A stretch of DNA of 64,000 nt, taken from Escherichia coli. Lineage in GTDB: Bacteria; Pseudomonadota; Gammaproteobacteria; Enterobacterales; Enterobacteriaceae. The position numbers were made by a program, and so were the translations under genes. Of this stretch, positions 20,414-58,817 are shown one piece after another. Numbering within the stretch: the first letter of the stretch is position 1; every line of letters starts with the position of its first letter. The stretch lies in the NCBI RefSeq assembly GCF_003790525.1, contig NZ_CP033636.1, one strand, 5' to 3'. A model generated the notes under the pieces. It did no database searches. It had not been told where the DNA came from and saw only the letters and a program-made list of their open reading frames with translations.

Positions 20414-21034
20414 TTGGTTGCCTCGATGAAGAGCTGCTTTTCTGATTTACCCGTTAAAGACGGCAAGTCCGGAACTTGGAAACTGGACACTTTCGAAATT
20501 ACCACAGATAAGGCGCTGACCCTCGCCCTTCGTGCCGAGTGTACTGGTAATACAGATGAGTTTATCCCGCCCGGTAGATATCGCCGCTTGTCCAACGGCT
20601 GGGATGTGGTGATGTCCAATACCCCGATGGAGATCCGAACCTGCCAGGATTTTATAGAGCGAGCCACCGGGCGGGTGCTCATTAATGGTCTTGGTCTTGG
20701 TATGGTGCTCCACGCCATTCTTCAGAAAGACGATGTAACCCATGTCACGGTAATCGAAAAAGAACAGGATGTTATTAACCTCGTTGCAGCCTCGTTTGCA
20801 ACCGATCTTCGCGTTGAAATTATTAATGCTGATGCAATGGAGTATTGTCCACCAGCTGGCGTTACGTACAACGCTTGCTGGCATGACATATGGACAGACT
20901 TCGCAACAGCTAATCTCGCACAGATGGATAAGCTGGAAAGTAAGTACCGGGACATCTGTGACTGGCAGGGATCGTGGGGCAGGGAGGAGTGTGAGCAAAA
21001 GCTCATTGAGTTCCAGAATCTTGAGGCTGATTAA
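20414..21034 (+). CDS. possible small SAM-dependent methyltransferase-fold protein
   Basis: 206-aa ORF; glycine-rich VLINGLGLGM followed by an acidic strand (VTVIEKE), resembling methyltransferase motif I; weak. Confidence 0.3.
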   Translation: MVASMKSCFSDLPVKDGKSGTWKLDTFEITTDKALTLALRAECTGNTDEFIPPGRYRRLSNGWDVVMSNTPMEIRTCQDFIERATGRVLINGLGLGMVLHAILQKDDVTHVTVIEKEQDVINLVAASFATDLRVEIINADAMEYCPPAGVTYNACWHDIWTDFATANLAQMDKLESKYRDICDWQGSWGREECEQKLIEFQNLEAD

Positions 21035-21202
21035 TCCAACTTGCGAAGGTGTCTCCGCTAAAGGAGCCCGGCTCGCTCTGTGCAAGCCCAGCTGTGCTGC
21101 ATGATTTGGCAAAGTCTTCAACAAACCAGATCGGTCTGATTTAGTAATCTCACTTCCAACCATCAGGCCGATATAATAACTGTATCCCCATTAGGATGGC
21201 TG

Positions 21203-43846: not shown

Positions 43847-44030
43847 ATGAAAAAACAACTGGCGTACGCTTCAAACTGTTCTGACAGTCTTTATTCGTAT
43901 ATTTATCGCACTCTGCAAAAACGGGCTGGTGATGAGAATGAAAGCCTTTATCAGCAGGCCATTTCCCGCTGCCGTACAGCTAAACAAAAAAAGAAACTGG
44001 CCGGGTATTATGCCGGTCCATGGCAGCTGC
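43847..44030 (+). pseudogene. small gene interrupted by IS1
   Basis: ORF with strong RBS caggagg runs into the IS1 left end; its stop codon is supplied by IS1 sequence. Confidence 0.5.
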
Positions 44031-44085
44031 GGTGATGCTGCCAACTTACTGATTTAGTGTATGATGGTGTTTTTGAGGTGCTCCA

Positions 44086-44361
44086 GTGGCTTCTGTTTCT
44101 ATCAGCTGTCCCTCCTGTTCAGCTACTGACGGGGTGGTGCGTAACGGCAAAAGCACTGCCGGACATCAGCGCTATCTCTGCTCTCACTGCCGTAAAACAT
44201 GGCAACTGCAGTTCACTTACACCGCTTCTCAACCCGGTACGCACCAGAAAATCATTGATATGGCCATGAATGGCGTTGGATGCCGGGCAACCGCCCGCAT
44301 TATGGGCGTTGGCCTCAACACGATTTTCCGCCATTTAAAAAACTCAGGCCGCAGTCGGTAA
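44086..44361 (+). CDS. insA: IS1 InsA
   Basis: 91-aa [43 protein letters not shown]. Confidence 0.95.
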
Positions 44362-44783
44362 CCTCGCGCATACAGCCGGGCAGTGACGTCATCGTCTGCG
44401 CGGAAATGGACGAACAGTGGGGATACGTCGGGGCTAAATCGCGCCAGCGCTGGCTGTTTTACGCGTATGACAGGCTCCGGAAGACGGTTGTTGCGCACGT
44501 ATTCGGTGAACGCACTATGGCGACGCTGGGGCGTCTTATGAGCCTGCTGTCACCCTTTGACGTGGTGATATGGATGACGGATGGCTGGCCGCTGTATGAA
44601 TCCCGCCTGAAGGGAAAGCTGCACGTAATCAGCAAGCGATATACGCAGCGAATTGAGCGGCATAACCTGAATCTGAGGCAGCACCTGGCACGGCTGGGAC
44701 GGAAGTCGCTGTCGTTCTCAAAATCGGTGGAGCTGCATGACAAAGTCATCGGGCATTATCTGAACATAAAACACTATCAATAA
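44280..44783 (+). CDS. insB: IS1 InsB
   Basis: 167-aa frame overlapping insA, consistent with the IS1 frameshift-fusion arrangement. Confidence 0.9.
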
Positions 44784-44964
44784 GTTGGAGTCATTACCGG
44801 CAGCTGCTTTTCAACGCGTGGTGTAACAATCGCGTCCCTAACACAGCGGTGCTGGCTCTTCTACTCCAGCAGTGCTTATCTCATTTCCAGTGCGAAGAAG
44901 TGATCGCAGCCTGGCAGTAACCCTATCAAGCCCCTTCGTATAGCGGAGGGGCAGGAGATATCTC

Positions 44965-46971: not shown

Positions 46972-47274
46972 ATGGAACGTGTAATATTTTCAGTAATCTT
47001 TTTTATGATGCTGGGCGTACCTTTTTACCTTCTTTATAAAATTGCCCGGGACATTTTTGGGACCGCCGGTGCTGGTGAGCCTGCACAATTGCCTCAGGGC
47101 AAGCAAAGACGCTCAGGAGGCGCTGGTTCGGGTTCGATCTGGCAAGGACACCATCTACAGGGGAGCAGCCATTTGAACCCCCTCGGAGGTGATTGTAATG
47201 GTGAAAATAGCATAGCTGGTGGTTGTGATGGTGGCGGTGGAGGAGGAGGAGGAGGAGGTGGTGGTGGTGACTGA
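46972..47274 (+). CDS. small membrane-anchored protein with glycine-rich C-terminal tail
   Basis: 100-aa ORF with RBS gacaggag; N-terminal hydrophobic helix then a Gly-rich tail ending in a 13-Gly run encoded by mixed GGN codons. Confidence 0.4.
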   Translation: MERVIFSVIFFMMLGVPFYLLYKIARDIFGTAGAGEPAQLPQGKQRRSGGAGSGSIWQGHHLQGSSHLNPLGGDCNGENSIAGGCDGGGGGGGGGGGGGD

Positions 47275-48334: not shown

Positions 48335-48620
48335 CGACTTCTGTCAATATCACCGGCTAGTGATTTACCTCTCTGCTGGTGGTCAGCCCGCCTAAGTTCA
48401 AATTATCTCTTTCTAAATTAGCCCGGATAAAAATCGGTCCCTCTAAAATAGCCTGCCCTGAGTAGGCTACGTCATACAAAGCGTTGGCCAGTCACCAGCT
48501 GGCTGGTGGCCATAATGCTCCACAGGATAAACCGTATCAGAACTACGCAAAGAAAAAGCCCCAACAATTTACCGATGGGGCCTTTTGCAGACATTTTACA
48601 GCCTTACCAATGATAGAGCG

Positions 48621-49352
48621 CTAAGGCTTCTGCTTAGTGAACAGACTTGCCCACAGATAATGGATAAAGTTGAGCAGAATGTATGTTACTCGTTGCTCGA
48701 ATTTCATCGGGGCTTTGTACTTTGTCGTTATGTTGTGAATATGAGTAAGGTCCGTATAGAGCCCTAGCGACTTCCTTGTTGACTTCAACACCGAACAGAT
48801 GTGCTGAACAGACTCCGGTGTGAACAACCGTAGCCCTCGTCGTTGTTTGACTTTATGGATAAAATCGTCCATCCCCATACATAACCATTCCGGCTTGATG
48901 CCATCAAACTTACAACGTCCGTTTATGATGACGACATTGATACATTCCAGTTCTCTAGCCTTAAGAGCAGACTGAATAGCCCTGATGTGCCCCTGGTTTT
49001 GCTTAAACGGGTTCTGCAACTTGAGGGTTCGGGACTGAGTCCATTTCCGCCAGTGGCTTTCCTCCAGAGTACCGTAGAGCTTGCCTACGTAGTTTTTCTG
49101 CTCTATGACGTATATACCATGTGGGGCTACGAGAATGTGATCAACCTGAGTAGTGCTATGAGCCGACAACTGAAAGGTGAGATCACTAAGTAGCCCCTGA
49201 GCTTCTTCAGGAAGCCCAGATTCAATTGCCTTTGCAGTCCGCCGTTCCGCTATGGCAGAGGTCATAAAACCCAACAGACACAGCAACACGACGAAAATAA
49301 GGATAATGAAAGCTACCCCCGTAATGCTCCACAGCAGATTGAAAGCATCCAT
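48621..49352 (-). CDS. NERD-domain-like protein with N-terminal membrane anchor
   Basis: 243-aa ORF; hydrophobic N-terminus; VDHILVAPHGIYVIEQKNYVG resembles the nuclease-related domain core. Confidence 0.45.
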   Translation of the reverse strand: MDAFNLLWSITGVAFIILIFVVLLCLLGFMTSAIAERRTAKAIESGLPEEAQGLLSDLTFQLSAHSTTQVDHILVAPHGIYVIEQKNYVGKLYGTLEESHWRKWTQSRTLKLQNPFKQNQGHIRAIQSALKARELECINVVIINGRCKFDGIKPEWLCMGMDDFIHKVKQRRGLRLFTPESVQHICSVLKSTRKSLGLYTDLTHIHNITTKYKAPMKFEQRVTYILLNFIHYLWASLFTKQKP

Positions 49353-49353
49353 G

Positions 49354-50535
49354 TTACCTCACAGAGGGGTAGCTGGTGGCATTAACAGATTCTACCAAGC
49401 GGGTAGTGGTACCGGTAAGGCTCTCAATATTTGAAGACAGGCTCATCAGCATGCCGAGTGCAGAACGGAGATTACGATGAGGCTCATTGTAGTTTTTGAA
49501 CGTGTCAGTGGAGTACATTTTTGAAAGACGTGTACGGATCTCTACTGACGTAAGATCTCCATCCACCAGGCCGTACTTAACTGCCTGAGGTGTTGGCCAT
49601 ACACGGCCTGAATAGAGAGAAACAGCATCGGCATCATGACGCGAGAGAAGCTTTTTACCCCGTCCAAGTTCAACATCAGTTATAAATTTTTCATGCATCG
49701 TGTTCAGGATCTCCTTCTGCATGAACTCCCTCGTTGAATCGGACAATGGGTGGAAGGGGTCAAGAGCATCTTTGAACTCACCGGCCGTAAGGGGCTCATT
49801 CTTGACGCCTACTGTGCTCATGATCTCTGACAGATTCCAGTGGTCCATACGCACACCGATAGAACCGATCAGGGCATTACTGTCGGCATAAATTGCATCA
49901 GCGGGCGATACCGCGTAATAGCATGCGGATGCGCATATGCCTTTCACACTAACGATGATTGGTTTATATGAGTCTGCGATATCAGAGAAAAAACGACCGG
50001 TACCGCTGGAGAGTACTTCGAGGGAGTTTTGCTTCGACCGTGCTTCATCGCCACGTTCTGTGCTCCCGGTTTTGTTACTCTTGTCAGCGGCTACAGATGA
50101 AAGAGAGCAACCGGCATCTGATACGCGTTCAATCTGTGGCTGGTGGTTTTTAAGCGCGTTTATCTGGCGGTAAATAATGATGGCGTCAGAGGGACCACCA
50201 CCACCTGACTCTGCCTCGATAATAACTGCTTTGGCATGGGGATTATTGTAAGCTTTGGCAAGAGCTGTTGCGATCACTGTTCCATCGCCCGTTTCCGAGC
50301 CGGTACCCATCTCGCCAGAAATCCGTATTACAGCTATATGGTCTTTCTTCCCTTCAGCGTCCTGCCATTGTTCGTAAAGATTGTAGAAAGAAAACCCTAC
50401 AGCGGTCATGGCAATTAGCGACATAGCAACTTTTGCCGTGGTATGAATGCGAAACATCTTATAAAAACGGTCAGCGTTATCATTGAGCGATTCTTTGATA
50501 TTTGTAGGGGACTTCCTTTTTTTACTGCTTAACAT
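49354..50535 (-). CDS. S49-family peptidase (SppA-like)
   Basis: 393-aa ORF; N-terminal membrane anchor; SppA-like blocks HIAVIRISGEM, AVIIEAESGGG and IGSIGVRMDHWN. Confidence 0.55.
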   Translation of the reverse strand: MLSSKKRKSPTNIKESLNDNADRFYKMFRIHTTAKVAMSLIAMTAVGFSFYNLYEQWQDAEGKKDHIAVIRISGEMGTGSETGDGTVIATALAKAYNNPHAKAVIIEAESGGGGPSDAIIIYRQINALKNHQPQIERVSDAGCSLSSVAADKSNKTGSTERGDEARSKQNSLEVLSSGTGRFFSDIADSYKPIIVSVKGICASACYYAVSPADAIYADSNALIGSIGVRMDHWNLSEIMSTVGVKNEPLTAGEFKDALDPFHPLSDSTREFMQKEILNTMHEKFITDVELGRGKKLLSRHDADAVSLYSGRVWPTPQAVKYGLVDGDLTSVEIRTRLSKMYSTDTFKNYNEPHRNLRSALGMLMSLSSNIESLTGTTTRLVESVNATSYPSVR

Positions 50536-50545
50536 CTGACCACCT

Positions 50546-51226
50546 TTACATGAGTTTTTGAAAGTTAGACCACAAGCGATTCAATGCAATTCCCAGTATC
50601 AATAAAGCGACTGGTGGGAAAAGTTGAGCGATATTGTTAAATAGTGACATATTCGGCATGACCAGGTAGACCATCGTTAAAGCACTGATCACCCAAAATG
50701 CTCGAAACCAAATACGATAAAACTGAACTGTAACCTTACCAAATACGTACCTCTTCAATTTCCACTGGTACATTCCATCTGCTAGCATGGCAAATAGATA
50801 GGGCAGAAAAACGATTAGCCACCCCAGGATTAAGTTCCACCGGAAAATGGACTGATAAAGTAAGAGGGGTATGTTTTTGGCCATAGTGTAATTAATAGAG
50901 GTAAATTTTTCAGCAACAATGTTAATACCTCTGGCTGGTTTTTTGGTGTCAGGGATCAGAATAGTATTCAGATAGTCAATTAACTTATAGTCATGTACCA
51001 ACCAATTTAAAGTCGCTTCACTATTTGCAATAACAGACTTCCAACGGTCATTTGATATGATGGACCGGCTTGCATTAACCTCCTGAGTAATCTGATATTT
51101 GAGCTCCTCAGTATTCTGGAAAGCCAGGCTGTAACCAAAATAAATGACCATGCCAAAAAAAAGCATTGTTCTGAGCACTGCTGCTCTGCTTGTATTATCC
51201 GCAGCCATTGCTTTCCCTCCATTCAC
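50546..51226 (-). CDS. polytopic membrane protein, possible transfer-associated
   Basis: 226-aa ORF with several hydrophobic helices, in the same operon-like run as the coupling protein. Confidence 0.4.
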   Translation of the reverse strand: MNGGKAMAADNTSRAAVLRTMLFFGMVIYFGYSLAFQNTEELKYQITQEVNASRSIISNDRWKSVIANSEATLNWLVHDYKLIDYLNTILIPDTKKPARGINIVAEKFTSINYTMAKNIPLLLYQSIFRWNLILGWLIVFLPYLFAMLADGMYQWKLKRYVFGKVTVQFYRIWFRAFWVISALTMVYLVMPNMSLFNNIAQLFPPVALLILGIALNRLWSNFQKLM

Positions 51227-52307
51227 GAAAAAGAGCTAGCCTCTGATCGTGATTGCAATAGTTGTTACGCCACATCGTCGGGATACCCAGGAGCCAGTGG
51301 TACTGTTTAGGTATGATTTGGTCGATGAGGCTTAACTCCGCCAGTTCTTTATGCTCTGCGCTTTTCCACTCGATCTGTCCCACATCAGGAACAAATACAG
51401 CGGTCCTTACTTTTGCGGCCTGGCGGGAAAATTCTATAAAGTTGATGCCCCACGGCGTCCAGTATCTGTACTGCTCGTTTAGGCCGATGTTAAACACCGG
51501 CAGAGAAAGAGTTGAGTCGGCAAAAGCCGAAATCACATTTTTGCAGACTCTTGGACTATCTATTTTTTCCTGTTCGGTTTTGAGATGAGTCAGCAGTGCA
51601 CGGTCAATAATGCTGTTAAAGGTGTTTGTATAAAGGCCATTAGGGTCAGGAAGCCGATCTATGGCAGTAATGATTTTAAATTTTAACCGAGAAAGAAAGG
51701 GAGAGTCCTCAATAGTAACTATATGACTATGTGTTGTTTCTGGATGAATCTGGGGTTTGATGCGCTGTACTTGTTTAAAAGAGACACTACCTGGCAAATT
51801 AATGAATGCGCCCACCGTGCGTGTCAAATCGACGAAATAAGGCAAAAGATAACAACCAAGCATACGGGCATTCTTCTTTACAAGATCACACCGTTCGTCA
51901 TTGTTATCGAAAGAAATACGGAAACTAACGAATTTACGTTCAGGACCTTCGCTGGTGGTCAGCGATTGAATCCATTCATGGCATGAACCTTGTGGTACCG
52001 ACCAGTAGCTGGTTTCACGGTCCCCAAAGGGATCAGTCGTGATCAACTCTCCCTTTAAAAGGAAAAGCTCAGACAGGGTATTTGCCATGGAGAATAGGGA
52101 ATCGATATCGTTGCTCTGACAAAATTTTCCCAAATGATGAAACGCGTTTTTTTCTATCTTAGTTAGCCGATCTCGAACTTCCTGAGAATCTGCGTACTTT
52201 AAACCCAAAGACTGAAAGCGCCTTTTTACGAGCGAGCGACATTTGCTGACTTTTAGTGCAGAGCTTAAAATTTGCTGGCGCGTCAGGACAATTTTTTCAT
52301 CCATCAA
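51195..52307 (-). CDS. hypothetical protein
   Basis: 370-aa ORF overlapping the coupling-protein stop by 4 bp. Confidence 0.45.
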   Translation of the reverse strand: MMDEKIVLTRQQILSSALKVSKCRSLVKRRFQSLGLKYADSQEVRDRLTKIEKNAFHHLGKFCQSNDIDSLFSMANTLSELFLLKGELITTDPFGDRETSYWSVPQGSCHEWIQSLTTSEGPERKFVSFRISFDNNDERCDLVKKNARMLGCYLLPYFVDLTRTVGAFINLPGSVSFKQVQRIKPQIHPETTHSHIVTIEDSPFLSRLKFKIITAIDRLPDPNGLYTNTFNSIIDRALLTHLKTEQEKIDSPRVCKNVISAFADSTLSLPVFNIGLNEQYRYWTPWGINFIEFSRQAAKVRTAVFVPDVGQIEWKSAEHKELAELSLIDQIIPKQYHWLLGIPTMWRNNYCNHDQRLALFREWRESNGCG

Positions 52308-54388
52308 TGAAACTTCCTTAGAAATTTATTAAGATTTTTGATATCGAGATTTTGACGCAAAGTAACTTTTCCGGCCTTCTTGAAAAGCATTTCCGACAGA
52401 GTTGTGTTTGGCTTCATTTGTTTCTCAGCAACAGCAATAGGGATTTGGCCTACAACCTTCCTGCCATCTTGAAGCCTGGCAACTATGTGAAACATAGGGA
52501 CCTGACCCAAGAGATCCTTTGGAATACTCTCTTCTAAAGTTGTCTGCTTTCTTTCTGAGATTGAACCTGAGAAGTTATTATGCGGCAAAGATGTTTCTGA
52601 ACCGGTCGTATAAGTGACCATATTTGTGCTTATCGCACTCTTACCAAAGTTCTCTACAACAAGCGTCTGAGTAGGAGTATCGTTGACTCGCAAGCTTATA
52701 TAATTGTTGCAGAGCCCCGTAATTCGATTGGCAGTTTCAACACTTGCCGCAGCAATAAAGTCGGAGATGGTTTGGGTGCAAATAAACAGTGCAATTTTCG
52801 CTGCACGACCCTGCGCCAGAAGGTTAATCATAGGGTTGTTAATGGCTGAGTGTGCCTCATCAACAAAAATACTTATCCTGGAATTAGCTGACATATCACC
52901 ATCCTGAGCGTTGTAGCGACTACCGGCACAGGAGGTCAGATCTGACATTATTAATTGAGAAATAGCAGCTGCTGTATCGGGGTTTGAAAGGCCATCAAGC
53001 GAAATGTATAGCACCCCGCCAGTGCTGAACATCCCTTCGCTTGTTACAATTTCTCTTGATGATACTGAGTTCGGGTTAGGAGATAAAAGCTCATTTAAAG
53101 GTTTTTCAATGAGCATATCGAAAACAGGCATAATACCTGCGGTCATTTTAGCCATATGCTCTGGGTCGGACATTGAGTAATCAATAAGCTGGGAAACAGT
53201 ATCTAACCAGTCTATTTGTTCGGACCCCTCGTAATTCATGAAATGAGCCGTAAACCATTCAGCGAGACGCTTGAAACGTACCGGCAAGGTTTCGTTAGCG
53301 ACGTACTTAACTTTTTCGGTCCAGACATCGTAACCATAATATCTCGCGTAACATGACTCCATTACCTTGACTGTAAGATTCACAATAGACATGTGGCTTT
53401 TCATGTTCTTGTGAATCAGATAAATAGAAGGCTTTTTCTCTATGTAAGAAAGCCCGGAAATCACATTGGAAACGAGAGCCTTGGCATACTGAACGAATGG
53501 GTTAACCTCACCGGGAACTGTCACCAAGCTCAAAAGACGAGATGTTAGGTCAGAAACATTAGTATAGGTGTTGCAGACATCAATACAGACCGAAGATGCT
53601 GGCTGGCCAGGATGAAATTTATAGAAAGGAAGACCGAGGGTCTTAGCCTCTTCCATTAGAGATTCTCGCCACTCTGCATCGTTCTTTGGATCTATGACAA
53701 CAACAACATGACCAAGATGAAGCATGCTAATGCTTAGTAAACGCTGTAGCACCGTTTTCCCGGTACCCACGTTTCCGGTTATCAGAGTATGACCAAACCA
53801 ATTGTCTTCAGTTACAAATATGGGTTCCCTACGTTCCACAGCAAAAATTGCATTGCTGCCGCCCATCTTACGAGCCATTGCGTCAAAATGTCTCTTAATT
53901 GGGTTGAAGACGAATGGCAACTCGATCTCACGTTTATCACTGGAGAGGTTAGCTATTTGATATGCCCGATCCGCATGTTCCGGGCCCCACTCAAACCCAT
54001 CACAAAAATAGGACTTTCGCTCGGGTATATCCTTATTTTTATTTTGATAATCCTGAACCAGTTGACGATACTTTCGCTCATTGGAGAAAAAGTTACTTTT
54101 GTTAATTACACGCAGTGAATCAAGACTAACGAACATGAAATGTCGCTTGAATACACGCCAATGAGCCATCAAGAATGGCGCTGCTGTTTTGCAACGATAA
54201 AGGCACAGCAAAAAAAGCAATATTGAGGTGAACAGAACTATTGGGGCGATGTCCAGTCCGTCTGAAGAAAGTCCCATATAAAGCATAGAAACCGAACAAA
54301 TCAAAAGTATTGAGGCACTACGATACTCAAGAATAGGCCGATAAAAATTCTCTTGTGCATGGAGGTTAGTCCTCTTCGAATCTGACAT
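52304..54388 (-). CDS. type IV coupling protein (TraG/TraD/VirD4 family)
   Basis: 694-aa ORF; two N-terminal membrane helices; Walker A GNVGTGKT and hydrophobic strand VVVVIDPKND; adjacent to the relaxase. Confidence 0.7.
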   Translation of the reverse strand: MSDSKRTNLHAQENFYRPILEYRSASILLICSVSMLYMGLSSDGLDIAPIVLFTSILLFLLCLYRCKTAAPFLMAHWRVFKRHFMFVSLDSLRVINKSNFFSNERKYRQLVQDYQNKNKDIPERKSYFCDGFEWGPEHADRAYQIANLSSDKREIELPFVFNPIKRHFDAMARKMGGSNAIFAVERREPIFVTEDNWFGHTLITGNVGTGKTVLQRLLSISMLHLGHVVVVIDPKNDAEWRESLMEEAKTLGLPFYKFHPGQPASSVCIDVCNTYTNVSDLTSRLLSLVTVPGEVNPFVQYAKALVSNVISGLSYIEKKPSIYLIHKNMKSHMSIVNLTVKVMESCYARYYGYDVWTEKVKYVANETLPVRFKRLAEWFTAHFMNYEGSEQIDWLDTVSQLIDYSMSDPEHMAKMTAGIMPVFDMLIEKPLNELLSPNPNSVSSREIVTSEGMFSTGGVLYISLDGLSNPDTAAAISQLIMSDLTSCAGSRYNAQDGDMSANSRISIFVDEAHSAINNPMINLLAQGRAAKIALFICTQTISDFIAAASVETANRITGLCNNYISLRVNDTPTQTLVVENFGKSAISTNMVTYTTGSETSLPHNNFSGSISERKQTTLEESIPKDLLGQVPMFHIVARLQDGRKVVGQIPIAVAEKQMKPNTTLSEMLFKKAGKVTLRQNLDIKNLNKFLRKFH
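52359..52369. repeat. AAAGTWACTTT palindrome copy inside coding sequence
   Basis: exact aaagtaacttt within the 3' end of the coupling-protein gene. Confidence 0.4.
54089..54099. repeat. AAAGTWACTTT palindrome copy inside coding sequence
   Basis: exact aaagttacttt within the 5' part of the coupling-protein gene. Confidence 0.4.
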
Positions 54389-57300
54389 TATAGGTTCCCA
54401 GCCTCTTTCAGGTTATTGATAATTCGTTCAATGTCCACTTTCGCCCGGTCTGATGCGGCCAGCAAAGTAGGCATGTTAAATGCATGGCATTTTGTATTGA
54501 TCACAGCACCAGAATTAACGAGGTACTGAGGAAGCTTATTGAAAAGATCTTGAGCCTCTAACTGCGACCCAAATTTTTCCACGCAAGATTGGGTCAGATA
54601 GAGAGTATTAGGAGTACTTACCATAAATCTGTTTTTGCGCTTTCTTTTAAACGCCACCTCCATTTTGGACAGAATTTGATGCAGTACTGACGCAATTTCT
54701 ACAAATTCAAGCTCTGTAACGTCACCTTCGCTTATAAGCGAGAATTCACCATTTTGGTCTGATTCAGTAGTTGCAAAGACTTTACTGTTCAGATTGTGAC
54801 CAGAAACAGGTGATGCTGGTTTTTGTACTTCTGCTTTGTCCGATGATTTATTCCGGTTGCGCTTGGGATTTTGTTTTTCTACCGGTGCTGTTGGGGCGAA
54901 CAGTCTGGCCAGTGCTGGCGAAAGATGATGCCCCTTAGCGTCTGTGGGCGCATGCTCTCCATTTGATTCTTCAAGTACAGGAGGTAAGGCGGGCTCTTCA
55001 CTTGCCATCACACTGGTTGCGGCTGCTTCGGTCTGGGAATACACAACTTCAGCTGGTGGTGGGCAGTTACCCTCAGTATCTGGTTCTGAGTTTTCTTGTC
55101 CTACAGAAACATCCATAGAGCGTTCAATCGTACCCTGGGGATCAGCGTTCTGTTCTCGGTTAAGTTCTGGTAATTCTGACGGCTCGGGGAGAAGCTTTTC
55201 ATTATGGACCGAAGAGCTTGTTGCACAACTACCGACTTCTGGCCGAGAAACACTAAGCTGTGTGAAATCGGTATAATCAATGATCTCATGCTCTTCATCT
55301 TCTTCCTCAAAAAGATGTTGATAATGTTCATATTCCACAGCCTCAGTTTTCAGCGGACCAGTCGCGGATGCACTATCGGTTCCATGATATTCCACGTCGC
55401 CAGAATGTTCTTCGACTGCATTTACACGTGGGGGAGGCAGCTCAAGCGTTTGCTTTGGACGTGGGGCAGAGTTTTCAACAGAAGACTCATCATTAATCAC
55501 TAATGCCTGATACATAGAAGTATTGAAAAGTGACTTTAAAGTTGTTGGCCTTCTTGGCTCATGATAGGTGAGCTGGAACCCGGCGCAGTTATCGCCGAGC
55601 TGGACTAAACGCAGATCGTCAATGTCCCTTACTATCCACATTCCATCGAGAGAGCCTTCTCTGAATGTCAGTTGGAAATAGGGCTCTTCACTAAATGCTT
55701 TTTCATCTAATCCCGGCAGCAATGCCATAGTGGCATCTATGTTGAGGTAGGGGACAGCATCTACACACACTATATAGTCATTGGAAAGTGGAGCGCTTAA
55801 AAGGAGTTCATGAAGTTGGTTGACCAGGACATGGGATTCCGTGTCCTTTGCCGATTCATCTTCACTTTCTTCTATATCAGGAATGACAGGATCAGCTGCT
55901 TCCTCACCCTCAGATTTAACTATCTGCGTGTCATTATCAATTTCATTATCACTTTCGGCTTTCTTCTCAAAATCGTCGGATGAGCCTTCATTTTTCTTAG
56001 AATGTATATCAACATCAATAGAGGCAGTGGAGCGGCCTAAATCATTAACCTTAAGAACAGCCGTCTCAACAGTATCAGTAATTTTAGTTATAGCGTCCCG
56101 ACCGGGCACTGGTCTTCTGTATTCAGTAACTGTTTTTTGCTCGTCAATGTAAATAAAGTCTTTATTGGCATTAACGCTAAAAAGACCCGGCACTGAGTCA
56201 GGGATTTTATAGGAATCAAAGATTAAACCAATCCACCTTAGCTTAAGAAGGTTATAGAATTCTAGTTTCCCTATCCCATTTCTAAAGATGTTTGATATTT
56301 CGTTTTCCGAATAGATACCCGGAATGAAGTAGTGAACGACACGCTCATCATCATAGGGCTCGACGTAACCACGTTGAACTAGGGATTCTACCAATACCGT
56401 CTTACCAGCCTCTCCCTGAGGGAAGTTATATTTATGTAATTCGAAATCATTGAGAACAAAATCAAGGAATGCGTTCTCGTTAAGGTATACCTCACCATTT
56501 ACGATAATGATGTGCATAGGCTTAGCATTGTAATTGTTGATATTGATACTGGTAAAGTTGTGCTTGATGGTACTAATGGCCCTTGCTGCTGCATCATTAG
56601 AACGCAGACCCATGATAGGGTCACGTAAAACATTAAGGTCTGTACCAGTAGAATAGAAATCAGCGGTCCTCACGCATTTAGACAAAAAGTCATTCCCATC
56701 AGTATAAACGTTTAGGGCGGTGATCATTTTTGAATAAACACGTTCTTTATTTACCCGATCCAAAAATGCAAGACATACCGGGTTTAGGATTCGCTCAAGG
56801 AAAACGCTGGACCAGATATTATGTTGATTATGAATACGCTTTCGCCAGTGGATTTCGTATTCAACCACGTCATTTTCACGTGCCCAGTCAAGAAGACTTT
56901 GTGAGCTTGGCGTCCAAATGATCGGACTAGCTAAATTCAGGCTTACAATATCGAGATCGTAAACCTTTCCGGCATCATGGACTAAACCACAGATAAACGC
57001 AGCATAGAGATATACTTTTCTACGGACTACTTCTTCATCTTGATATCCGATTGGTCTCAGTTCTGAGTGATGCGCATTTTTTAAAGAGAGTATGGCCACT
57101 TCCAGGCTGTGAGAAAGTAACCCACCAATACCATTATGATGATGATTTTCGGAAGCTGGCAAAAGATGTATCCAGCGAACATATTCAACCAAGGGCTTTA
57201 ATACTAAATTAGTAAATGTATATGCATCGTCCCTGATGTCGCTATCGCTGATAGCTAACATCATTGAAATTGAGTGCAGCTTTTCCCGATACAGAGACAG

Positions 57301-57540
57301 GATTGACTGTTCATTAAATGTCTGTATGCCCGTCGGACGAGTTGGATACTCGATGAATTTCAGGACTTCTGGATTTGGATGATCAGGAACAGTGTACTTC
57401 TGATCTCCTAGAATCTGCGCAAAAGGAGAGAGGCTTGATATATCCTCAATCATTACAGAGGTTGCATCATTCTCCTGAGATGAGAATATCCCCAAAATCC
57501 GTTTAATACATAAATACAGCGCCCTGAAATTCATCATCAT
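54388..57540 (-). CDS. traI: conjugative relaxase, MOBH-type (HD-domain)
   Basis: 1050-aa ORF; histidine triad ENHHHNG and HD motif VHDAGK as in MOBH relaxases; acidic central region; gene order relaxase then coupling protein. Confidence 0.65.
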   Translation of the reverse strand: MMMNFRALYLCIKRILGIFSSQENDATSVMIEDISSLSPFAQILGDQKYTVPDHPNPEVLKFIEYPTRPTGIQTFNEQSILSLYREKLHSISMMLAISDSDIRDDAYTFTNLVLKPLVEYVRWIHLLPASENHHHNGIGGLLSHSLEVAILSLKNAHHSELRPIGYQDEEVVRRKVYLYAAFICGLVHDAGKVYDLDIVSLNLASPIIWTPSSQSLLDWARENDVVEYEIHWRKRIHNQHNIWSSVFLERILNPVCLAFLDRVNKERVYSKMITALNVYTDGNDFLSKCVRTADFYSTGTDLNVLRDPIMGLRSNDAAARAISTIKHNFTSININNYNAKPMHIIIVNGEVYLNENAFLDFVLNDFELHKYNFPQGEAGKTVLVESLVQRGYVEPYDDERVVHYFIPGIYSENEISNIFRNGIGKLEFYNLLKLRWIGLIFDSYKIPDSVPGLFSVNANKDFIYIDEQKTVTEYRRPVPGRDAITKITDTVETAVLKVNDLGRSTASIDVDIHSKKNEGSSDDFEKKAESDNEIDNDTQIVKSEGEEAADPVIPDIEESEDESAKDTESHVLVNQLHELLLSAPLSNDYIVCVDAVPYLNIDATMALLPGLDEKAFSEEPYFQLTFREGSLDGMWIVRDIDDLRLVQLGDNCAGFQLTYHEPRRPTTLKSLFNTSMYQALVINDESSVENSAPRPKQTLELPPPRVNAVEEHSGDVEYHGTDSASATGPLKTEAVEYEHYQHLFEEEDEEHEIIDYTDFTQLSVSRPEVGSCATSSSVHNEKLLPEPSELPELNREQNADPQGTIERSMDVSVGQENSEPDTEGNCPPPAEVVYSQTEAAATSVMASEEPALPPVLEESNGEHAPTDAKGHHLSPALARLFAPTAPVEKQNPKRNRNKSSDKAEVQKPASPVSGHNLNSKVFATTESDQNGEFSLISEGDVTELEFVEIASVLHQILSKMEVAFKRKRKNRFMVSTPNTLYLTQSCVEKFGSQLEAQDLFNKLPQYLVNSGAVINTKCHAFNMPTLLAASDRAKVDIERIINNLKEAGNL

Positions 57541-57543
57541 ACC

Positions 57544-58281
57544 TTATCGACGTTTGCCTGACAGTTCGGCTGCAATGTATGCCTGCACACTTTTATATTG
57601 CATTACTTTGGTGATGAACTCTGCTGGACTGTATGGCCCATCCTTACGGCGAGAAACATTCAGAGTCTTTTTCACATTCTCAACATATAAATTAATACTC
57701 TTTATAATGTTGTGAGACATAACCGGATAGTCGCTTACAGCCAGTAAACCCAATGAGTTGTACTCATACATTGTGTTCATGAGCTGGTTCATCTCGAAGA
57801 TGTACTTGTAAAACCTCATGGTGTTGTGGTTATTGAAGTTGAGTTGTACTGGTTCAAAACTGAAAGGTACAAACTGAGTTGATGACATGAATGAGTCATT
57901 CTTGTCGAACTCAATTGACTTAATATAAGCAACAAGATTTTCTTTCATCTTATTGTTTTCTTCATGCAGCTCGTTGAACCAATCCTGAATAGCCTGAACA
58001 AGGTCAGGATGTTTAACTGCATCAACCGTTTTAAAGAGAGAGGAAATAGCGATACTCACATCATCAAAACCTCTGATGACTGCTCCATTTCTGGCAGTTA
58101 AAAACCGGTTAAAATCTGGGGTGCCGGGGTTAATAATAACTTTGGCCATACCCTGGTGCTCTGGTCTACGTTGAGTAGAAGTTTGAGCGTTTACGCCTTG
58201 CTTTTTATTTGAACCTTTTACCATTACATCTTTTGGTTCAATGTTAATACGCTCATTGTCCGTGATAATTGCGTCGGTCAT
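57544..58281 (-). CDS. hypothetical protein upstream of relaxase, possible relaxosome accessory protein
   Basis: 245-aa ORF, 4 bp upstream of the relaxase gene. Confidence 0.4.
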   Translation of the reverse strand: MTDAIITDNERINIEPKDVMVKGSNKKQGVNAQTSTQRRPEHQGMAKVIINPGTPDFNRFLTARNGAVIRGFDDVSIAISSLFKTVDAVKHPDLVQAIQDWFNELHEENNKMKENLVAYIKSIEFDKNDSFMSSTQFVPFSFEPVQLNFNNHNTMRFYKYIFEMNQLMNTMYEYNSLGLLAVSDYPVMSHNIIKSINLYVENVKKTLNVSRRKDGPYSPAEFITKVMQYKSVQAYIAAELSGKRR

Positions 58282-58817
58282 TGTGCCACCTTAGTTTTTG
58301 AGTATTGACGGATTTTTCGTCCAAGTTCGATATATGCTGAATGATAGAGCTCAAGCATTTCTCTGTAAGGCTCCAGCAATGCTTCCGTTTCAGAAATCAT
58401 TTCGTATTCCCAGCTGGCATGGTTTACAAAACAGTTCTTAGAATATTTTCCACTTTTCATTGGTTGCACCCGTTTTGACATGTGACTAGGCGCTCTTGTT
58501 TTATAAGGGCTGAACTGATGCCAAGTGATCGTTACTTTTCTGGCATTACCAATTAGCTCAACTTTTGGTGCGTAAGAACCCAGATACTCCCTCTTTGGAA
58601 CTTTGCTATGTCGGGTAAGGTTAATCTCTTGGTGGTTTCGTTCCTTCCACTTGATCCAGTATTTTGTAATGAGATCTTCAGCCTCAACACGCAAACCTTC
58701 AATCTGAGCACGTAAATTTTTACGTGTTAGCTCTATAGAACTTATAAGATTCGAATTACTCATGACGCCTCCTGATGTGAAATTACTATACCGGAGGAAA
58801 TTTCCGTTTTTTTTCAC
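58278..58817 (-). CDS. hypothetical protein, first gene of the relaxase operon
   Basis: 179-aa ORF overlapping the next gene by 4 bp; faces the candidate oriT. Confidence 0.4.
   Translation of the reverse strand: MKKNGNFLRYSNFTSGGVMSNSNLISSIELTRKNLRAQIEGLRVEAEDLITKYWIKWKERNHQEINLTRHSKVPKREYLGSYAPKVELIGNARKVTITWHQFSPYKTRAPSHMSKRVQPMKSGKYSKNCFVNHASWEYEMISETEALLEPYREMLELYHSAYIELGRKIRQYSKTKVAQ

What the first reader, a model, noticed from the sequence alone, without database searches (positions are those of the whole stretch)
48621..52307. NERD-like protein, S49 peptidase and membrane protein co-oriented with the coupling-protein operon
Directly downstream of the coupling protein on the same strand are a 370-aa unknown, a 226-aa polytopic membrane protein, an S49 (SppA-like) peptidase and a NERD-like protein with a membrane anchor. 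Intergenic gaps are 1-10 bp or overlapping. A membrane-tethered peptidase and nuclease-related protein are not standard transfer components and could be an entry-exclusion, pilin-processing or defence-like module.
Basis: partly seen in the sequence, partly recalled or inferred. Interest (0 to 1): 0.55.

Follow-up and report, generated by a model that had tools for sequence, protein, structure and literature searches.

The report
Tail of IncHI plasmid DNA-transfer operon
These four genes are the already catalogued end of the DNA-transfer operon of a common IncHI2 resistance plasmid: one is a known essential partner of the coupling protein, and the other three are conserved accessory genes whose jobs are still untested.

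Summary
On the minus strand, directly after the coupling-protein gene, lie a 369/370-aa orphan, a DUF4400 membrane protein, an S49 peptidase and a membrane-anchored NERD protein. They overlap or sit 1-10 nt apart and are followed by a hairpin terminator.

The window is an IncHI2 plasmid backbone, 100% identical to hundreds of sequenced plasmids. The four genes are the orthologues of R27 R0118, traJ (R0117), R0116 ("peptidase") and R0115. Published R27 work assigns all four to the H operon (traH-R0121-traI-traG-R0118-traJ-R0116-R0115) and shows them de-repressed together in an htdA mutant.

- The membrane protein is TraJ/DtrJ, a known essential partner of the coupling protein.
- Pilin processing (TrhP) and exclusion (EexA/EexB) are assigned to other IncHI genes. 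No known defence system matches.
- New here: the S49 gene follows DtrJ in distant marine MOBH1 plasmids and diverges at the same rate as TraD, TraI and TraJ. Its Ser/Lys dyad is invariant.
- The NERD protein (invariant D/E/K) and the orphan occur only in IncHI-type plasmids.

The functions I propose are inferred, not shown: a periplasmic housekeeping protease, a membrane-tethered nuclease and a coupling-protein accessory. Ordinary and known; modest interest.

The parts
48549..48586 (-). Intrinsic-terminator-like hairpin (AAAAGGCCCCA...TGGGGCTTTTTCTTT) that ends the operon, 35 nt after the NERD stop codon
   Evidence: Sequence and RNAfold dG -16.1 kcal/mol. In R27 the next gene, R0114, is not co-regulated with the operon.
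48621..49352 (-). Membrane-anchored NERD (PD-(D/E)xK) protein, 243 aa; orthologue of R27 R0115; last gene of the operon
   Evidence: Pfam NERD 1.9e-21. One N-terminal transmembrane helix followed by basic residues, so the domain is predicted to be cytoplasmic. D71/E84/K86 are invariant in 16 homologues. AF2 pLDDT 90.9. The Foldseek top hits are all PD-(D/E)xK nucleases, though weak. 62% identical to the R27-type protein.
49354..50535 (-). S49 (SppA-type) Ser/Lys peptidase, 393 aa, with an N-terminal signal anchor and a low-complexity insert of roughly 55-60 aa at about residues 131-187; orthologue of R27 R0116
   Evidence: Pfam S49 5.8e-28. Aligned to B. subtilis SppA 3RST with Ser203 and Lys255 at the catalytic positions. 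Both residues are invariant in 11 homologues. Listed as '(H), peptidase' in R27.
50546..51208 (-). TraJ/DtrJ (DUF4400), a polytopic inner-membrane partner of the coupling protein, 220 aa from the ATG at 51208 (the ORF is open to 51226); orthologue of R27 traJ (R0117)
   Evidence: Pfam PF14348 1.7e-12. RefSeq start and GGAGG ribosome-binding site. 82% identical to R27-type TraJ. Essential in Rts1, SXT and R27. DtrJ of IncC.
51195..52304 (-). 369/370-aa cytoplasmic orphan; orthologue of R27 R0118; its start and stop codons overlap those of traD and traJ
   Evidence: No family or PDB match. Only about 5 full-length 50%-identity clusters among 1.84 billion representative proteins. AF2 pLDDT 79.5, pTM 0.81. 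No fold relative beyond its own family. Assigned to the H operon.
52304..54388 (-). Type IV coupling protein (TraD in NCBI naming, TraG in R27 naming), 694 aa
   Evidence: NCBIfam TIGR03743 SXT_TraD, 676.8 bits, cut-off 366.
54388..57540 (-). MOBH relaxase TraI, 1050 aa
   Evidence: NCBIfam MobH, 255.6 bits, cut-off 200.
57544..58281 (-). 245-aa protein of unknown function; orthologue of R27 R0121 (H operon)
   Evidence: ORF. Same position in R27, IncHI3-type and marine MOBH1 loci. R0121 is 8.3-fold higher at 25 C than at 37 C.
58278..58763 (-). MobI-type relaxosome factor (TraH of R27), first gene of the operon
   Evidence: RefSeq annotation of an IncHI2 record that is identical over the compared segment 48400-54500. 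TraH of R27 is described as MobI-like.

Best explanation
The stretch is the promoter-distal half of the IncHI 'H operon', the DNA-transfer and coupling-protein operon of the Tra1 region. The gene order is mobI/traH, R0121, traI, traG(traD), R0118, traJ(dtrJ), R0116 (S49), R0115 (NERD), then a terminator.

Shown:
- The orthology and the operon organisation.
- Co-regulation of the R27 orthologues with the transfer regulon.
- The identity of the membrane protein as TraJ/DtrJ, the essential inner-membrane partner of the coupling protein.

Inferred:
1. The S49 protein is an active SppA-type Ser/Lys protease. Its topology is predicted as N-terminus in the cytoplasm and catalytic domain in the periplasm. 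It is an old, co-inherited accessory of the MOBH1 TraD-DtrJ module. Its most likely job is membrane and periplasmic housekeeping while the transfer machinery is made: clearing signal peptides or mis-assembled membrane-protein fragments. It would be redundant with host SppA/SohB in laboratory matings, much as plasmid DsbA/DsbC-type proteins are redundant with host enzymes.
2. The NERD protein is a membrane-tethered PD-(D/E)xK nuclease whose catalytic domain faces the cytoplasm. It was added in the IncHI lineage and probably acts on DNA at the membrane near the translocon.
3. The 370-aa orphan is a cytoplasmic, IncHI-specific accessory made in step with TraD and TraJ.

On this reading none of the three is a separate defence, exclusion or pilin-processing module.
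For: Identity of the region:
- The window segment is >=99% identical to 978 plasmid records (100% to the best), and the typed example is IncHI2A, MOBH, MPF_F.
- The same eight-gene order is found in R27, other IncHI1 plasmids, an IncHI3-like plasmid and two further IncHI-like contigs.
- R27 numbering and H-operon assignment: R0115 (H), R0116 (H) peptidase, R0117 traJ, R0118 (H), R0119 traG, R0120 traI, R0121 (H), R0122 traH. In an htdA mutant at 25 C all of R0115-R0121 rise 4.7- to 11-fold, while R0114 does not.
- Overlapping or 1-10 nt junctions, and a terminator after the NERD gene.

TraJ/DtrJ:
- It is essential in Rts1, with homologues in SXT and R27.
- DtrJ acts with TraD in IncC.

S49:
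- The catalytic Ser203 and Lys255 align with the SppA dyad and are invariant in 11 homologues.
- A basic N-terminus followed by a hydrophobic anchor is conserved in distant homologues.
- The S49 gene lies immediately after DtrJ in five distant MOBH1 elements: Vibrio gigantis p1, Motilimonas and three contigs from metagenome or sequencing-run assemblies.
- Its identity to the window protein tracks the core proteins. IncHI1: 72% against 83/64/82% for TraD/TraI/TraJ. IncHI3-like: 49% against 46/37/46%. Marine: 28-32% against 27-35% for TraD.
- Context supporting a periplasmic maturation or quality-control role: in Rts1 the position after DtrJ holds a DsbA-family gene (orf206) needed for efficient mating, and in IncC the S49 gene sits next to a DsbA-family gene.

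NERD and the orphan:
- D71/E84/K86 are invariant in the NERD family alignment.
- The NERD model is confident, and its best structural matches, though weak, are PD-(D/E)xK nucleases.
- dN values for all four genes lie within the range of the operon's known essential genes, with dS saturated.
Against: - There are no experimental data for the IncHI2 genes.
- That R27 R0115, R0116 and R0118 are dispensable for transfer rests on my memory of Lawley et al. 2002, which the library does not hold. The only indirect support is that these loci were still unnamed in 2020.
- The deep synteny and core-like conservation of the S49 gene fit a specific partner of TraD-DtrJ at least as well as a generic housekeeping enzyme.
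- In wild-type R27, R0115-R0118 are expressed at similar and fairly high levels at 25 and 37 C, whereas traH and R0121 are 8- to 12-fold thermoregulated. This hints at an internal promoter and a role outside mating.
- The topologies are predicted only from hydropathy and the positive-inside rule. The S49 anchor is only moderately hydrophobic: it fell below the 1.6 Kyte-Doolittle threshold.
Confidence: 0.65

Rival explanations
1. The S49 peptidase is a dedicated partner of the TraD-DtrJ translocon. It would cleave a specific transfer-related substrate, for example a periplasmic loop of DtrJ or the coupling protein, or an Mpf protein that docks on them, to assemble, activate or recycle the DNA-transfer channel.
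For: - The gene lies immediately after DtrJ in IncHI1, IncHI2, IncHI3-like and five distant marine MOBH1 elements.
- Its divergence tracks TraD, TraI and TraJ.
- The catalytic dyad is invariant, and a clade-specific C-A-S-A-C motif surrounds the nucleophile in 10 of 11 homologues.
Against: - Members of the same S49 clade also occur away from any DtrJ gene: next to OmpA or an integrase on other plasmids or elements, and next to DsbA in IncC.
- Rts1 has DtrJ and transfers without any S49 gene at that position.
- As I recall it, disruption of R27 R0116 did not block transfer. I could not check this.
Confidence: 0.15
2. One reading: the S49 and NERD genes form a defence-like or exclusion module. 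A membrane-tethered nuclease would destroy incoming phage or competitor-plasmid DNA at the inner membrane, with the protease acting as sensor or regulator.
For: - The NERD domain occurs at the N-terminus of defence proteins. Domain-level hits are to MADS6 (E=8.3e-11), PglW and MkoA.
- The S49 and NERD genes are 1 nt apart in all IncHI-type plasmids examined.
- R0115 and R0116 are expressed at both 25 and 37 C in R27, that is, outside mating conditions.
Against: - The hits cover only the NERD domain and score far below the family cut-offs: 41 bits against 460, and 20 against 990.
- The kinase or helicase effector domains of those defence proteins are absent.
- The S49 protein matches no PADLOC model.
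- The pair lies inside the transfer operon and is de-repressed with it in an htdA mutant.
- The S49 gene occurs without NERD in the distant MOBH1 elements.
- IncHI exclusion is attributed to EexA/EexB.
- A transposon (TraDIS) screen for IncC exclusion factors did not list the IncC S49 gene among its candidates.
Confidence: 0.08
3. The S49 peptidase is a pilin-processing enzyme, for example the unidentified C-terminal trimming protease of the TrbC-like H-pilin.
For: - Maturation of the RP4 TrbC pilin needs LepB, TraF and a further unidentified host peptidase.
- The S49 catalytic domain is predicted to face the periplasm, where pilin is processed.
Against: - IncHI plasmids already encode the pilin peptidase TrhP in Tra2.
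- The gene sits in the DNA-transfer operon, not with the pilin or Mpf genes.
- As I recall from Lawley 2002 (not checkable here), the H-operon genes are not needed for H-pilus production.
Confidence: 0.04

Closest known systems
R27 (IncHI1) Tra1 H operon: traH-R0121-traI-traG-R0118-traJ-R0116-R0115
   Same: The gene order, sizes and tight junctions are the same. Protein identities run from 62% to 83%. The R27 genes are assigned to one operon and are de-repressed together in an htdA mutant.
   Different: This window is the IncHI2 version. The sequences have diverged (dS saturated). No function has been published for R0118, R0116 or R0115 in either plasmid.
TraJ/DtrJ (DUF4400, PF14348) of R27, SXT, Rts1 and IncC
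   Same: It matches the Pfam family, is polytopic, and lies one gene downstream of the MOBH coupling-protein gene. Family members are essential for DNA transfer but not for pilus formation.
   Different: It is only 21-26% identical to distant members. Its interaction with the coupling protein was not tested for this protein.
Bacillus subtilis SppA (PDB 3RST/4KWB) and E. coli SppA/SohB (peptidase family S49)
   Same: It has the S49 fold signature, the Ser/Lys dyad at the aligned positions, and an N-terminal membrane anchor.
   Different: - It scores below the NCBIfam SppA equivalog cut-off: 121.2 bits against 155.45.
- It carries a low-complexity insert of roughly 55-60 aa before the catalytic strand.
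- It has a C-A-S-A-C motif instead of A-A-S-G-G.
- It is plasmid-borne and syntenic with DtrJ.
NERD domain proteins (PF08378), for example the pXO1 NERD protein, and the NERD modules of PglW, MADS6 and MkoA
   Same: It has the NERD domain with conserved D...ExK residues. Its domain organisation, a single transmembrane helix plus NERD, is also found in solitary plasmid genes.
   Different: It has no kinase, helicase or zinc-ribbon extension. It lies at the end of a conjugative transfer operon. It is far below the defence-family cut-offs.
Plasmid-encoded periplasmic folding factors in MOBH/MPF-F systems (Rts1 orf206 DsbA-family; R27 DsbC/HtdT)
   Same: They occupy the same position after DtrJ in Rts1, or sit adjacent to the S49 gene in IncC. 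They are accessory factors, and the F and R27 examples are redundant with host enzymes.
   Different: The chemistry differs: thiol oxidoreductase against serine protease. The analogy is positional and conceptual only.

Membership tests
IncHI Tra1 H operon (R27 R0115-R0122) | Same gene order and orthologous proteins downstream of the oriT-proximal mobI/traH | tested here: met
   All eight proteins match in order, at 62-83% identity to an IncHI1 plasmid.
IncHI Tra1 H operon (R27 R0115-R0122) | Co-transcription and co-regulation with the tra regulon (TrhR/TrhY, HtdA) | not testable with these tools
   Shown only for R27: all of R0115-R0121 rise 4.7- to 11-fold in the htdA mutant. For the window, only the tight junctions and the terminator are available.
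TraJ/DtrJ (PF14348, DUF4400) | Profile match | tested here: met
   Pfam E=1.7e-12 over residues 51-223.
TraJ/DtrJ (PF14348, DUF4400) | Polytopic membrane protein encoded just downstream of a MOBH-type coupling-protein gene | tested here: met
   Hydrophobic segments at about residues 131-149, 172-190 and 195-213. SXT_TraD-type coupling-protein gene one gene upstream.
TraJ/DtrJ (PF14348, DUF4400) | Essential for DNA transfer; binds the coupling protein | not testable with these tools
   Literature exists for relatives only.
Peptidase S49 (SppA type) | Profile match to the S49 domain | tested here: met
   Pfam 5.8e-28; PDB SppA E=6e-15.
Peptidase S49 (SppA type) | Catalytic Ser-Lys dyad | tested here: met
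   Ser203 and Lys255 align to the catalytic Ser (Ser147 by my recollection of SppA numbering) and to the Ala that replaces Lys199 in the mutant chain 3RST. Both are invariant in 11 homologues.
SppA proper (NCBIfam equivalogs TIGR00706/TIGR00705) | Score above the curated cut-off | tested here: not met
   121.2 bits against 155.45, and 96.1 against 311.45. It is an S49 family member but not an SppA equivalog.
NERD (PF08378), PD-(D/E)xK superfamily | Profile match and conserved D...ExK residues | tested here: met
   Pfam 1.9e-21. D71, E84 and K86 are invariant.
NERD (PF08378), PD-(D/E)xK superfamily | Restriction-endonuclease-like fold | tested here: inconclusive
   The AF2 model is confident (pLDDT 90.9). 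The Foldseek top hits are PD-(D/E)xK nucleases (R2 endonuclease, Can2, Hjc, RecE, Cas4), but none has E below 0.015.
Known anti-phage defence systems (BREX PglW, MADS6, Mokosh MkoA and the rest of PADLOC) | Full-length match to a system protein, and presence of the partner genes | tested here: not met
   Only the NERD module matches: 41 bits against a cut-off of 460, and 20 against 990; PADLOC E=1e-5 to 1e-6 over about 80-145 residues of proteins 1400-1600 aa long. The S49, TraJ and 370-aa proteins have no hit.
IncHI entry/surface exclusion (EexA/EexB) | Homology to EexA or EexB, or a measured exclusion phenotype | not tested
   The literature attributes IncHI1 exclusion to EexA and EexB. No sequence comparison or assay was done here.

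The most novel reading that the evidence does not exclude
The S49 peptidase is an ancient, dedicated third subunit or maturation factor of the MOBH1 TraD-DtrJ DNA translocon, possibly switched by a disulfide across its C-A-S-A-C active-site motif. In the IncHI lineage it was joined by a membrane-tethered NERD nuclease that polices DNA at the channel. Together they would be a so far unrecognised proteolytic and nucleolytic control layer on conjugative DNA export or entry.
Probability: 0.15. Interest if true: 0.55.

Novelty: already known. Interest (0 to 1): 0.25.

Why it matters
IncHI2 plasmids are major carriers of mcr, NDM and other resistance genes, and every one carries this operon. Most of what is here is already catalogued, so the finding itself adds little.

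The useful residue is a short list of three strongly conserved, expressed but uncharacterised genes inside the DNA-transfer operon.

One comparative result is, as far as I could find, unpublished. The S49 protease is co-inherited with the coupling protein and DtrJ across deep MOBH1 lineages. It is therefore the best candidate for an overlooked transfer accessory and a possible target for conjugation inhibitors.

Tried and rejected
- **Are the 190-233-aa proteins in the same slot of marine MOBH1 plasmids homologues of the 370-aa protein?** A profile-profile comparison (hhalign) gave 8.7% probability, which is not significant. A shared W...GIP motif is merely suggestive.
- **DtrJ-S49 fusion as evidence that the two proteins work together.** The one fused protein, P0034, is a 1-nt deletion in an A-run on a single 1.9-kb contig, so it was rejected as an artefact or rare mutant.
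- **dN/dS.** dS is saturated between IncHI2 and IncHI1 or IncHI3-like plasmids, so only dN could be compared.
- **Primary R27 mutagenesis papers.** Lawley 2002 and 2003 are not held in the library. Searches for the locus names and for S49/SppA in IncHI or IncC plasmids found nothing specific.
- **Internal promoter for the distal genes.** The consensus scan found no convincing minus-strand site inside traD, and promoter-like sites were no more frequent than in shuffled sequence.

Full report
**Observation**

- NERD protein: 48621-49352.
- S49 peptidase: 49354-50535.
- DUF4400 membrane protein: 50546-51226. The likely true start is the ATG at 51208, which follows a GGAGG ribosome-binding site.
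- 369/370-aa unknown protein: 51195-52307.

Directly upstream are the coupling protein (52304-54388; NCBIfam SXT_TraD, 676.8 bits, cut-off 366) and a MobH relaxase (54388-57540). Pfam confirms NERD (1.9e-21), Peptidase_S49 (5.8e-28) and DUF4400/DtrJ-like (1.7e-12), and finds nothing for the 370-aa protein.

The junctions are tight. TraD and the 370-aa gene share TGATG, a 1-nt overlap. The 370-aa gene and TraJ overlap by 14 nt. TraJ and S49 are 10 nt apart, and S49 and NERD are 1 nt apart. A GC-rich hairpin with a U-run (dG -16.1 kcal/mol) at 48586-48549 on the minus strand lies 35 nt after the NERD stop codon. These are therefore the last four genes of a long, tightly packed operon.

**What the region is**

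The 6.1-kb segment is at least 99% identical to 978 plasmid records and 100% identical to the best of them. These come from Escherichia, Salmonella, Enterobacter and Klebsiella. The annotated example is typed IncHI2A, MOBH, MPF_F.

The same gene order is present in several places: R27, the IncHI1 prototype; another IncHI1 plasmid; an IncHI3-like Klebsiella plasmid; and two more distant IncHI-like contigs. That order is mobI, a roughly 240-aa unknown, mobH/traI, traD, a roughly 365-aa unknown, DUF4400, S49 and NERD.

A transcriptome paper on R27 supplies the published names (PMC7366339):
- R0122 is traH.
- R0121 is unnamed.
- R0120 is traI.
- R0119 is traG.
- R0118 is unnamed.
- R0117 is traJ.
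- R0116 is labelled "peptidase".
- R0115 is unnamed.

All are labelled as H-operon genes. In an htdA mutant at 25 C, R0115 to R0121 all rise 4.7- to 11-fold, whereas the neighbouring R0114 does not. The finding therefore corresponds to R0118-traJ-R0116-R0115, a catalogued part of the IncHI backbone.

**The membrane protein is a known essential component**

DUF4400 is now called "DtrJ-like" in Pfam. A systematic deletion study of Rts1 lists traJ (DUF4400) as essential for DNA transfer and names homologues in SXT and R27. A paper on IncC plasmids calls the same protein DtrJ, says it acts with TraD, and cites Hancock et al. 2021. From memory, Gunton et al. 2007 showed that R27 TraJ is membrane-associated and binds the coupling protein TraG.

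**The S49 peptidase**

It aligns with B. subtilis SppA (PDB 3RST, E=6e-15), with Ser203 and Lys255 at the catalytic positions. Both residues are invariant in 11 homologues. It scores below the NCBIfam SppA equivalog cut-offs (121 bits against 155), so it belongs to the S49 family but is not SppA proper.

A basic N-terminus followed by a hydrophobic segment is conserved in distant homologues. This predicts a protein with its N-terminus in the cytoplasm and its catalytic domain in the periplasm, as in SppA. That topology is inferred, not shown.

The result I did not find in the literature concerns synteny. An S49 gene of the same clade lies immediately after DtrJ in five distant MOBH1 elements: Vibrio gigantis p1, Motilimonas eburnea and three contigs from metagenome or sequencing-run assemblies. 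In all but the Vibrio plasmid the array is visibly MobI, an unknown, TraI, TraD, sometimes a further unknown, DtrJ and S49. In the three metagenome or sequencing-run contigs the MPF genes traL, traE, traK and traB follow.

Its identity to the window protein tracks the core proteins:

| Compared with | S49 | TraD | TraI | TraJ |
|---|---|---|---|---|
| IncHI1 | 72% | 83% | 64% | 82% |
| IncHI3-like | 49% | 46% | 37% | 46% |
| Marine elements | 28-32% | 27-35% | 26-29% | 21-26% |

The S49 gene is thus an old, co-inherited companion of the TraD-DtrJ module. The link is not universal:
- The same clade also occurs next to an OmpA-family gene or an integrase gene on other elements.
- In IncC it sits next to a DsbA-family gene, far from traD.
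- Rts1 has a DsbA-family gene (orf206, needed for efficient mating) in the position after DtrJ and has no S49 gene there.

**The NERD protein**

It has one strong N-terminal transmembrane helix followed by R/K residues, so the domain is predicted to be cytoplasmic. The D71...E84-x-K86 motif is invariant across 16 homologues. The AF2 model is confident (pLDDT 90.9). Its best Foldseek matches are all PD-(D/E)xK nucleases (R2 endonuclease, Can2, Hjc, RecE, Cas4), but none is significant, with E at or above 0.015.

It is found at the end of the operon only in IncHI-type plasmids and is absent from the distant MOBH1 elements. The matches to defence proteins (MADS6, PglW, MkoA) cover only the NERD module and score far below the cut-offs.

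**The 370-aa protein**

Other MOBH1 elements carry unrelated or unrecognisably diverged proteins of 125-233 aa in the same position, or none at all. A profile-profile comparison (hhalign) was not significant.

**Selection**

Between IncHI2 and IncHI1, dS is saturated. The dN values are 0.114 (TraD), 0.135 (TraJ), 0.193 (S49), 0.231 (370-aa), 0.249 (TraI) and 0.290 (NERD). The three uncharacterised genes therefore evolve at about the rate of the relaxase, not like decaying cargo.

**Most likely mechanism**

The operon identity and the role of TraJ are shown. The rest is inferred.
- **S49.** I commit to an accessory periplasm-facing protease. It would clear signal peptides or mis-assembled membrane-protein fragments while the transfer apparatus is built, and would be redundant with host SppA/SohB. 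This parallels the plasmid DsbA/DsbC-type proteins that share its genomic position.
- **NERD.** A membrane-tethered nuclease acting on DNA near the translocon.
- **The orphan.** A cytoplasmic accessory made in step with TraD and TraJ.

My recollection of Lawley et al. 2002 is that 9 of 14 Tra1 ORFs were essential, and that the named tra and trh genes were those with phenotypes. On that reading R0115, R0116 and R0118 are dispensable in laboratory matings. I could not read the paper. A 2025 paper confirms only the count of 14 ORFs.

**Rival readings**
- **A dedicated TraD-DtrJ maturation protease.** The deep synteny supports this as strongly as it supports housekeeping.
- **A defence or exclusion pair.** The main support is that R0115-R0118 are expressed at similar levels at 25 and 37 C in wild-type R27, unlike traH and R0121. 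Against it: the operon context, the lack of any match to a defence system, the published EexA/EexB exclusion factors, and an IncC exclusion screen that did not pick up the IncC S49 gene.
- **Pilin processing.** TrhP already fills that role.

**Verdict**

The feature is an already known part of the IncHI backbone, and three of its genes remain functionally uncharacterised. The deep linkage of the S49 gene to DtrJ is the only part that seems worth an experiment.

Noticed in passing
window 44057-44800: An IS1 copy sits among the small plus-strand genes downstream of the operon. ORFs 44086-44361 and 44280-44783 read as InsA and InsB; I identified them by eye from the translations, not by a database match. 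The reference IncHI2 record L001 has an intact 98-aa hypothetical gene at the corresponding place. The 62-aa ORF at 43847-44035 therefore looks like its truncated remnant.
   Followed up: no
window 46972-47274: A 100-aa ORF ends in a run of about 14 glycines encoded by a G-rich repeat. The opposite strand reads poly-Pro and poly-His/Leu. RefSeq annotates the homologue as a hypothetical protein (L001 10573-10875). The repeat could be a tract prone to slippage.
   Followed up: no
R27 orthologues of window 48621-52307 (supplement of PMC7366339): In wild-type R27, R0115-R0118 have similar and fairly high signals at 25 and 37 C (about 700-1500). traH and R0121 at the head of the same operon are 12.5- and 8.3-fold higher at 25 C. 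This suggests an internal, temperature-independent promoter or differential mRNA stability. A consensus scan found no convincing site.
   Followed up: partly
window 49354-50535, residues 201-205 of the S49 protein: The catalytic Ser203 is flanked by two cysteines (C-A-S-A-C) in 10 of 11 plasmid-clade homologues. The IncC protein and B. subtilis SppA have G-A-S-G-G and A-A-S-G-G instead. In a periplasmic enzyme a CxxxC pair around the nucleophile could form a regulatory disulfide. In IncC, whose own S49 lacks the cysteines, the S49 gene sits next to a DsbA-family gene.
   Followed up: partly
L018 (Rts1) 20536-22814; L008, L010, L017, L004: The position between the coupling-protein gene and DtrJ holds a different small unknown protein in each MOBH1 lineage: 125 aa in Rts1, 190-233 aa in marine plasmids, about 365 aa in IncHI, and none in L015. 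The marine proteins and the IncHI protein share a W..(about 55 aa)..GIP motif, but the profile comparison was not significant.
   Followed up: partly
P0034 (Logan contig, 1912 bp): A 509-aa 'DtrJ-S49 fusion' protein, 100% identical to the window proteins, arises from a 1-nt deletion in the A-run at the end of traJ (…FQKLM* becomes …FQNSCKGGQM…). It is a single contig and probably a sequencing error or a rare mutant.
   Followed up: yes
Plasmid records NZ_CP119735.1, NZ_CP047668.1, NZ_CP139416.1, NZ_CP067266.1: Natural IS insertions or truncations occur in this stretch. The examples are an IS5 in the S49 gene, an IS66 within the 6.1-kb segment, an IS26 truncating the 370-aa gene, and a truncated NERD gene. 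These isolates could serve as ready-made knockouts for transfer assays.
   Followed up: no
window 57544-58281: The 245-aa protein between mobI and traI (orthologue of R27 R0121) is also uncharacterised. It is conserved in position across all the MOBH1 loci examined, at 226-269 aa. It is among the most thermoregulated R27 genes, 8.3-fold.
   Followed up: no
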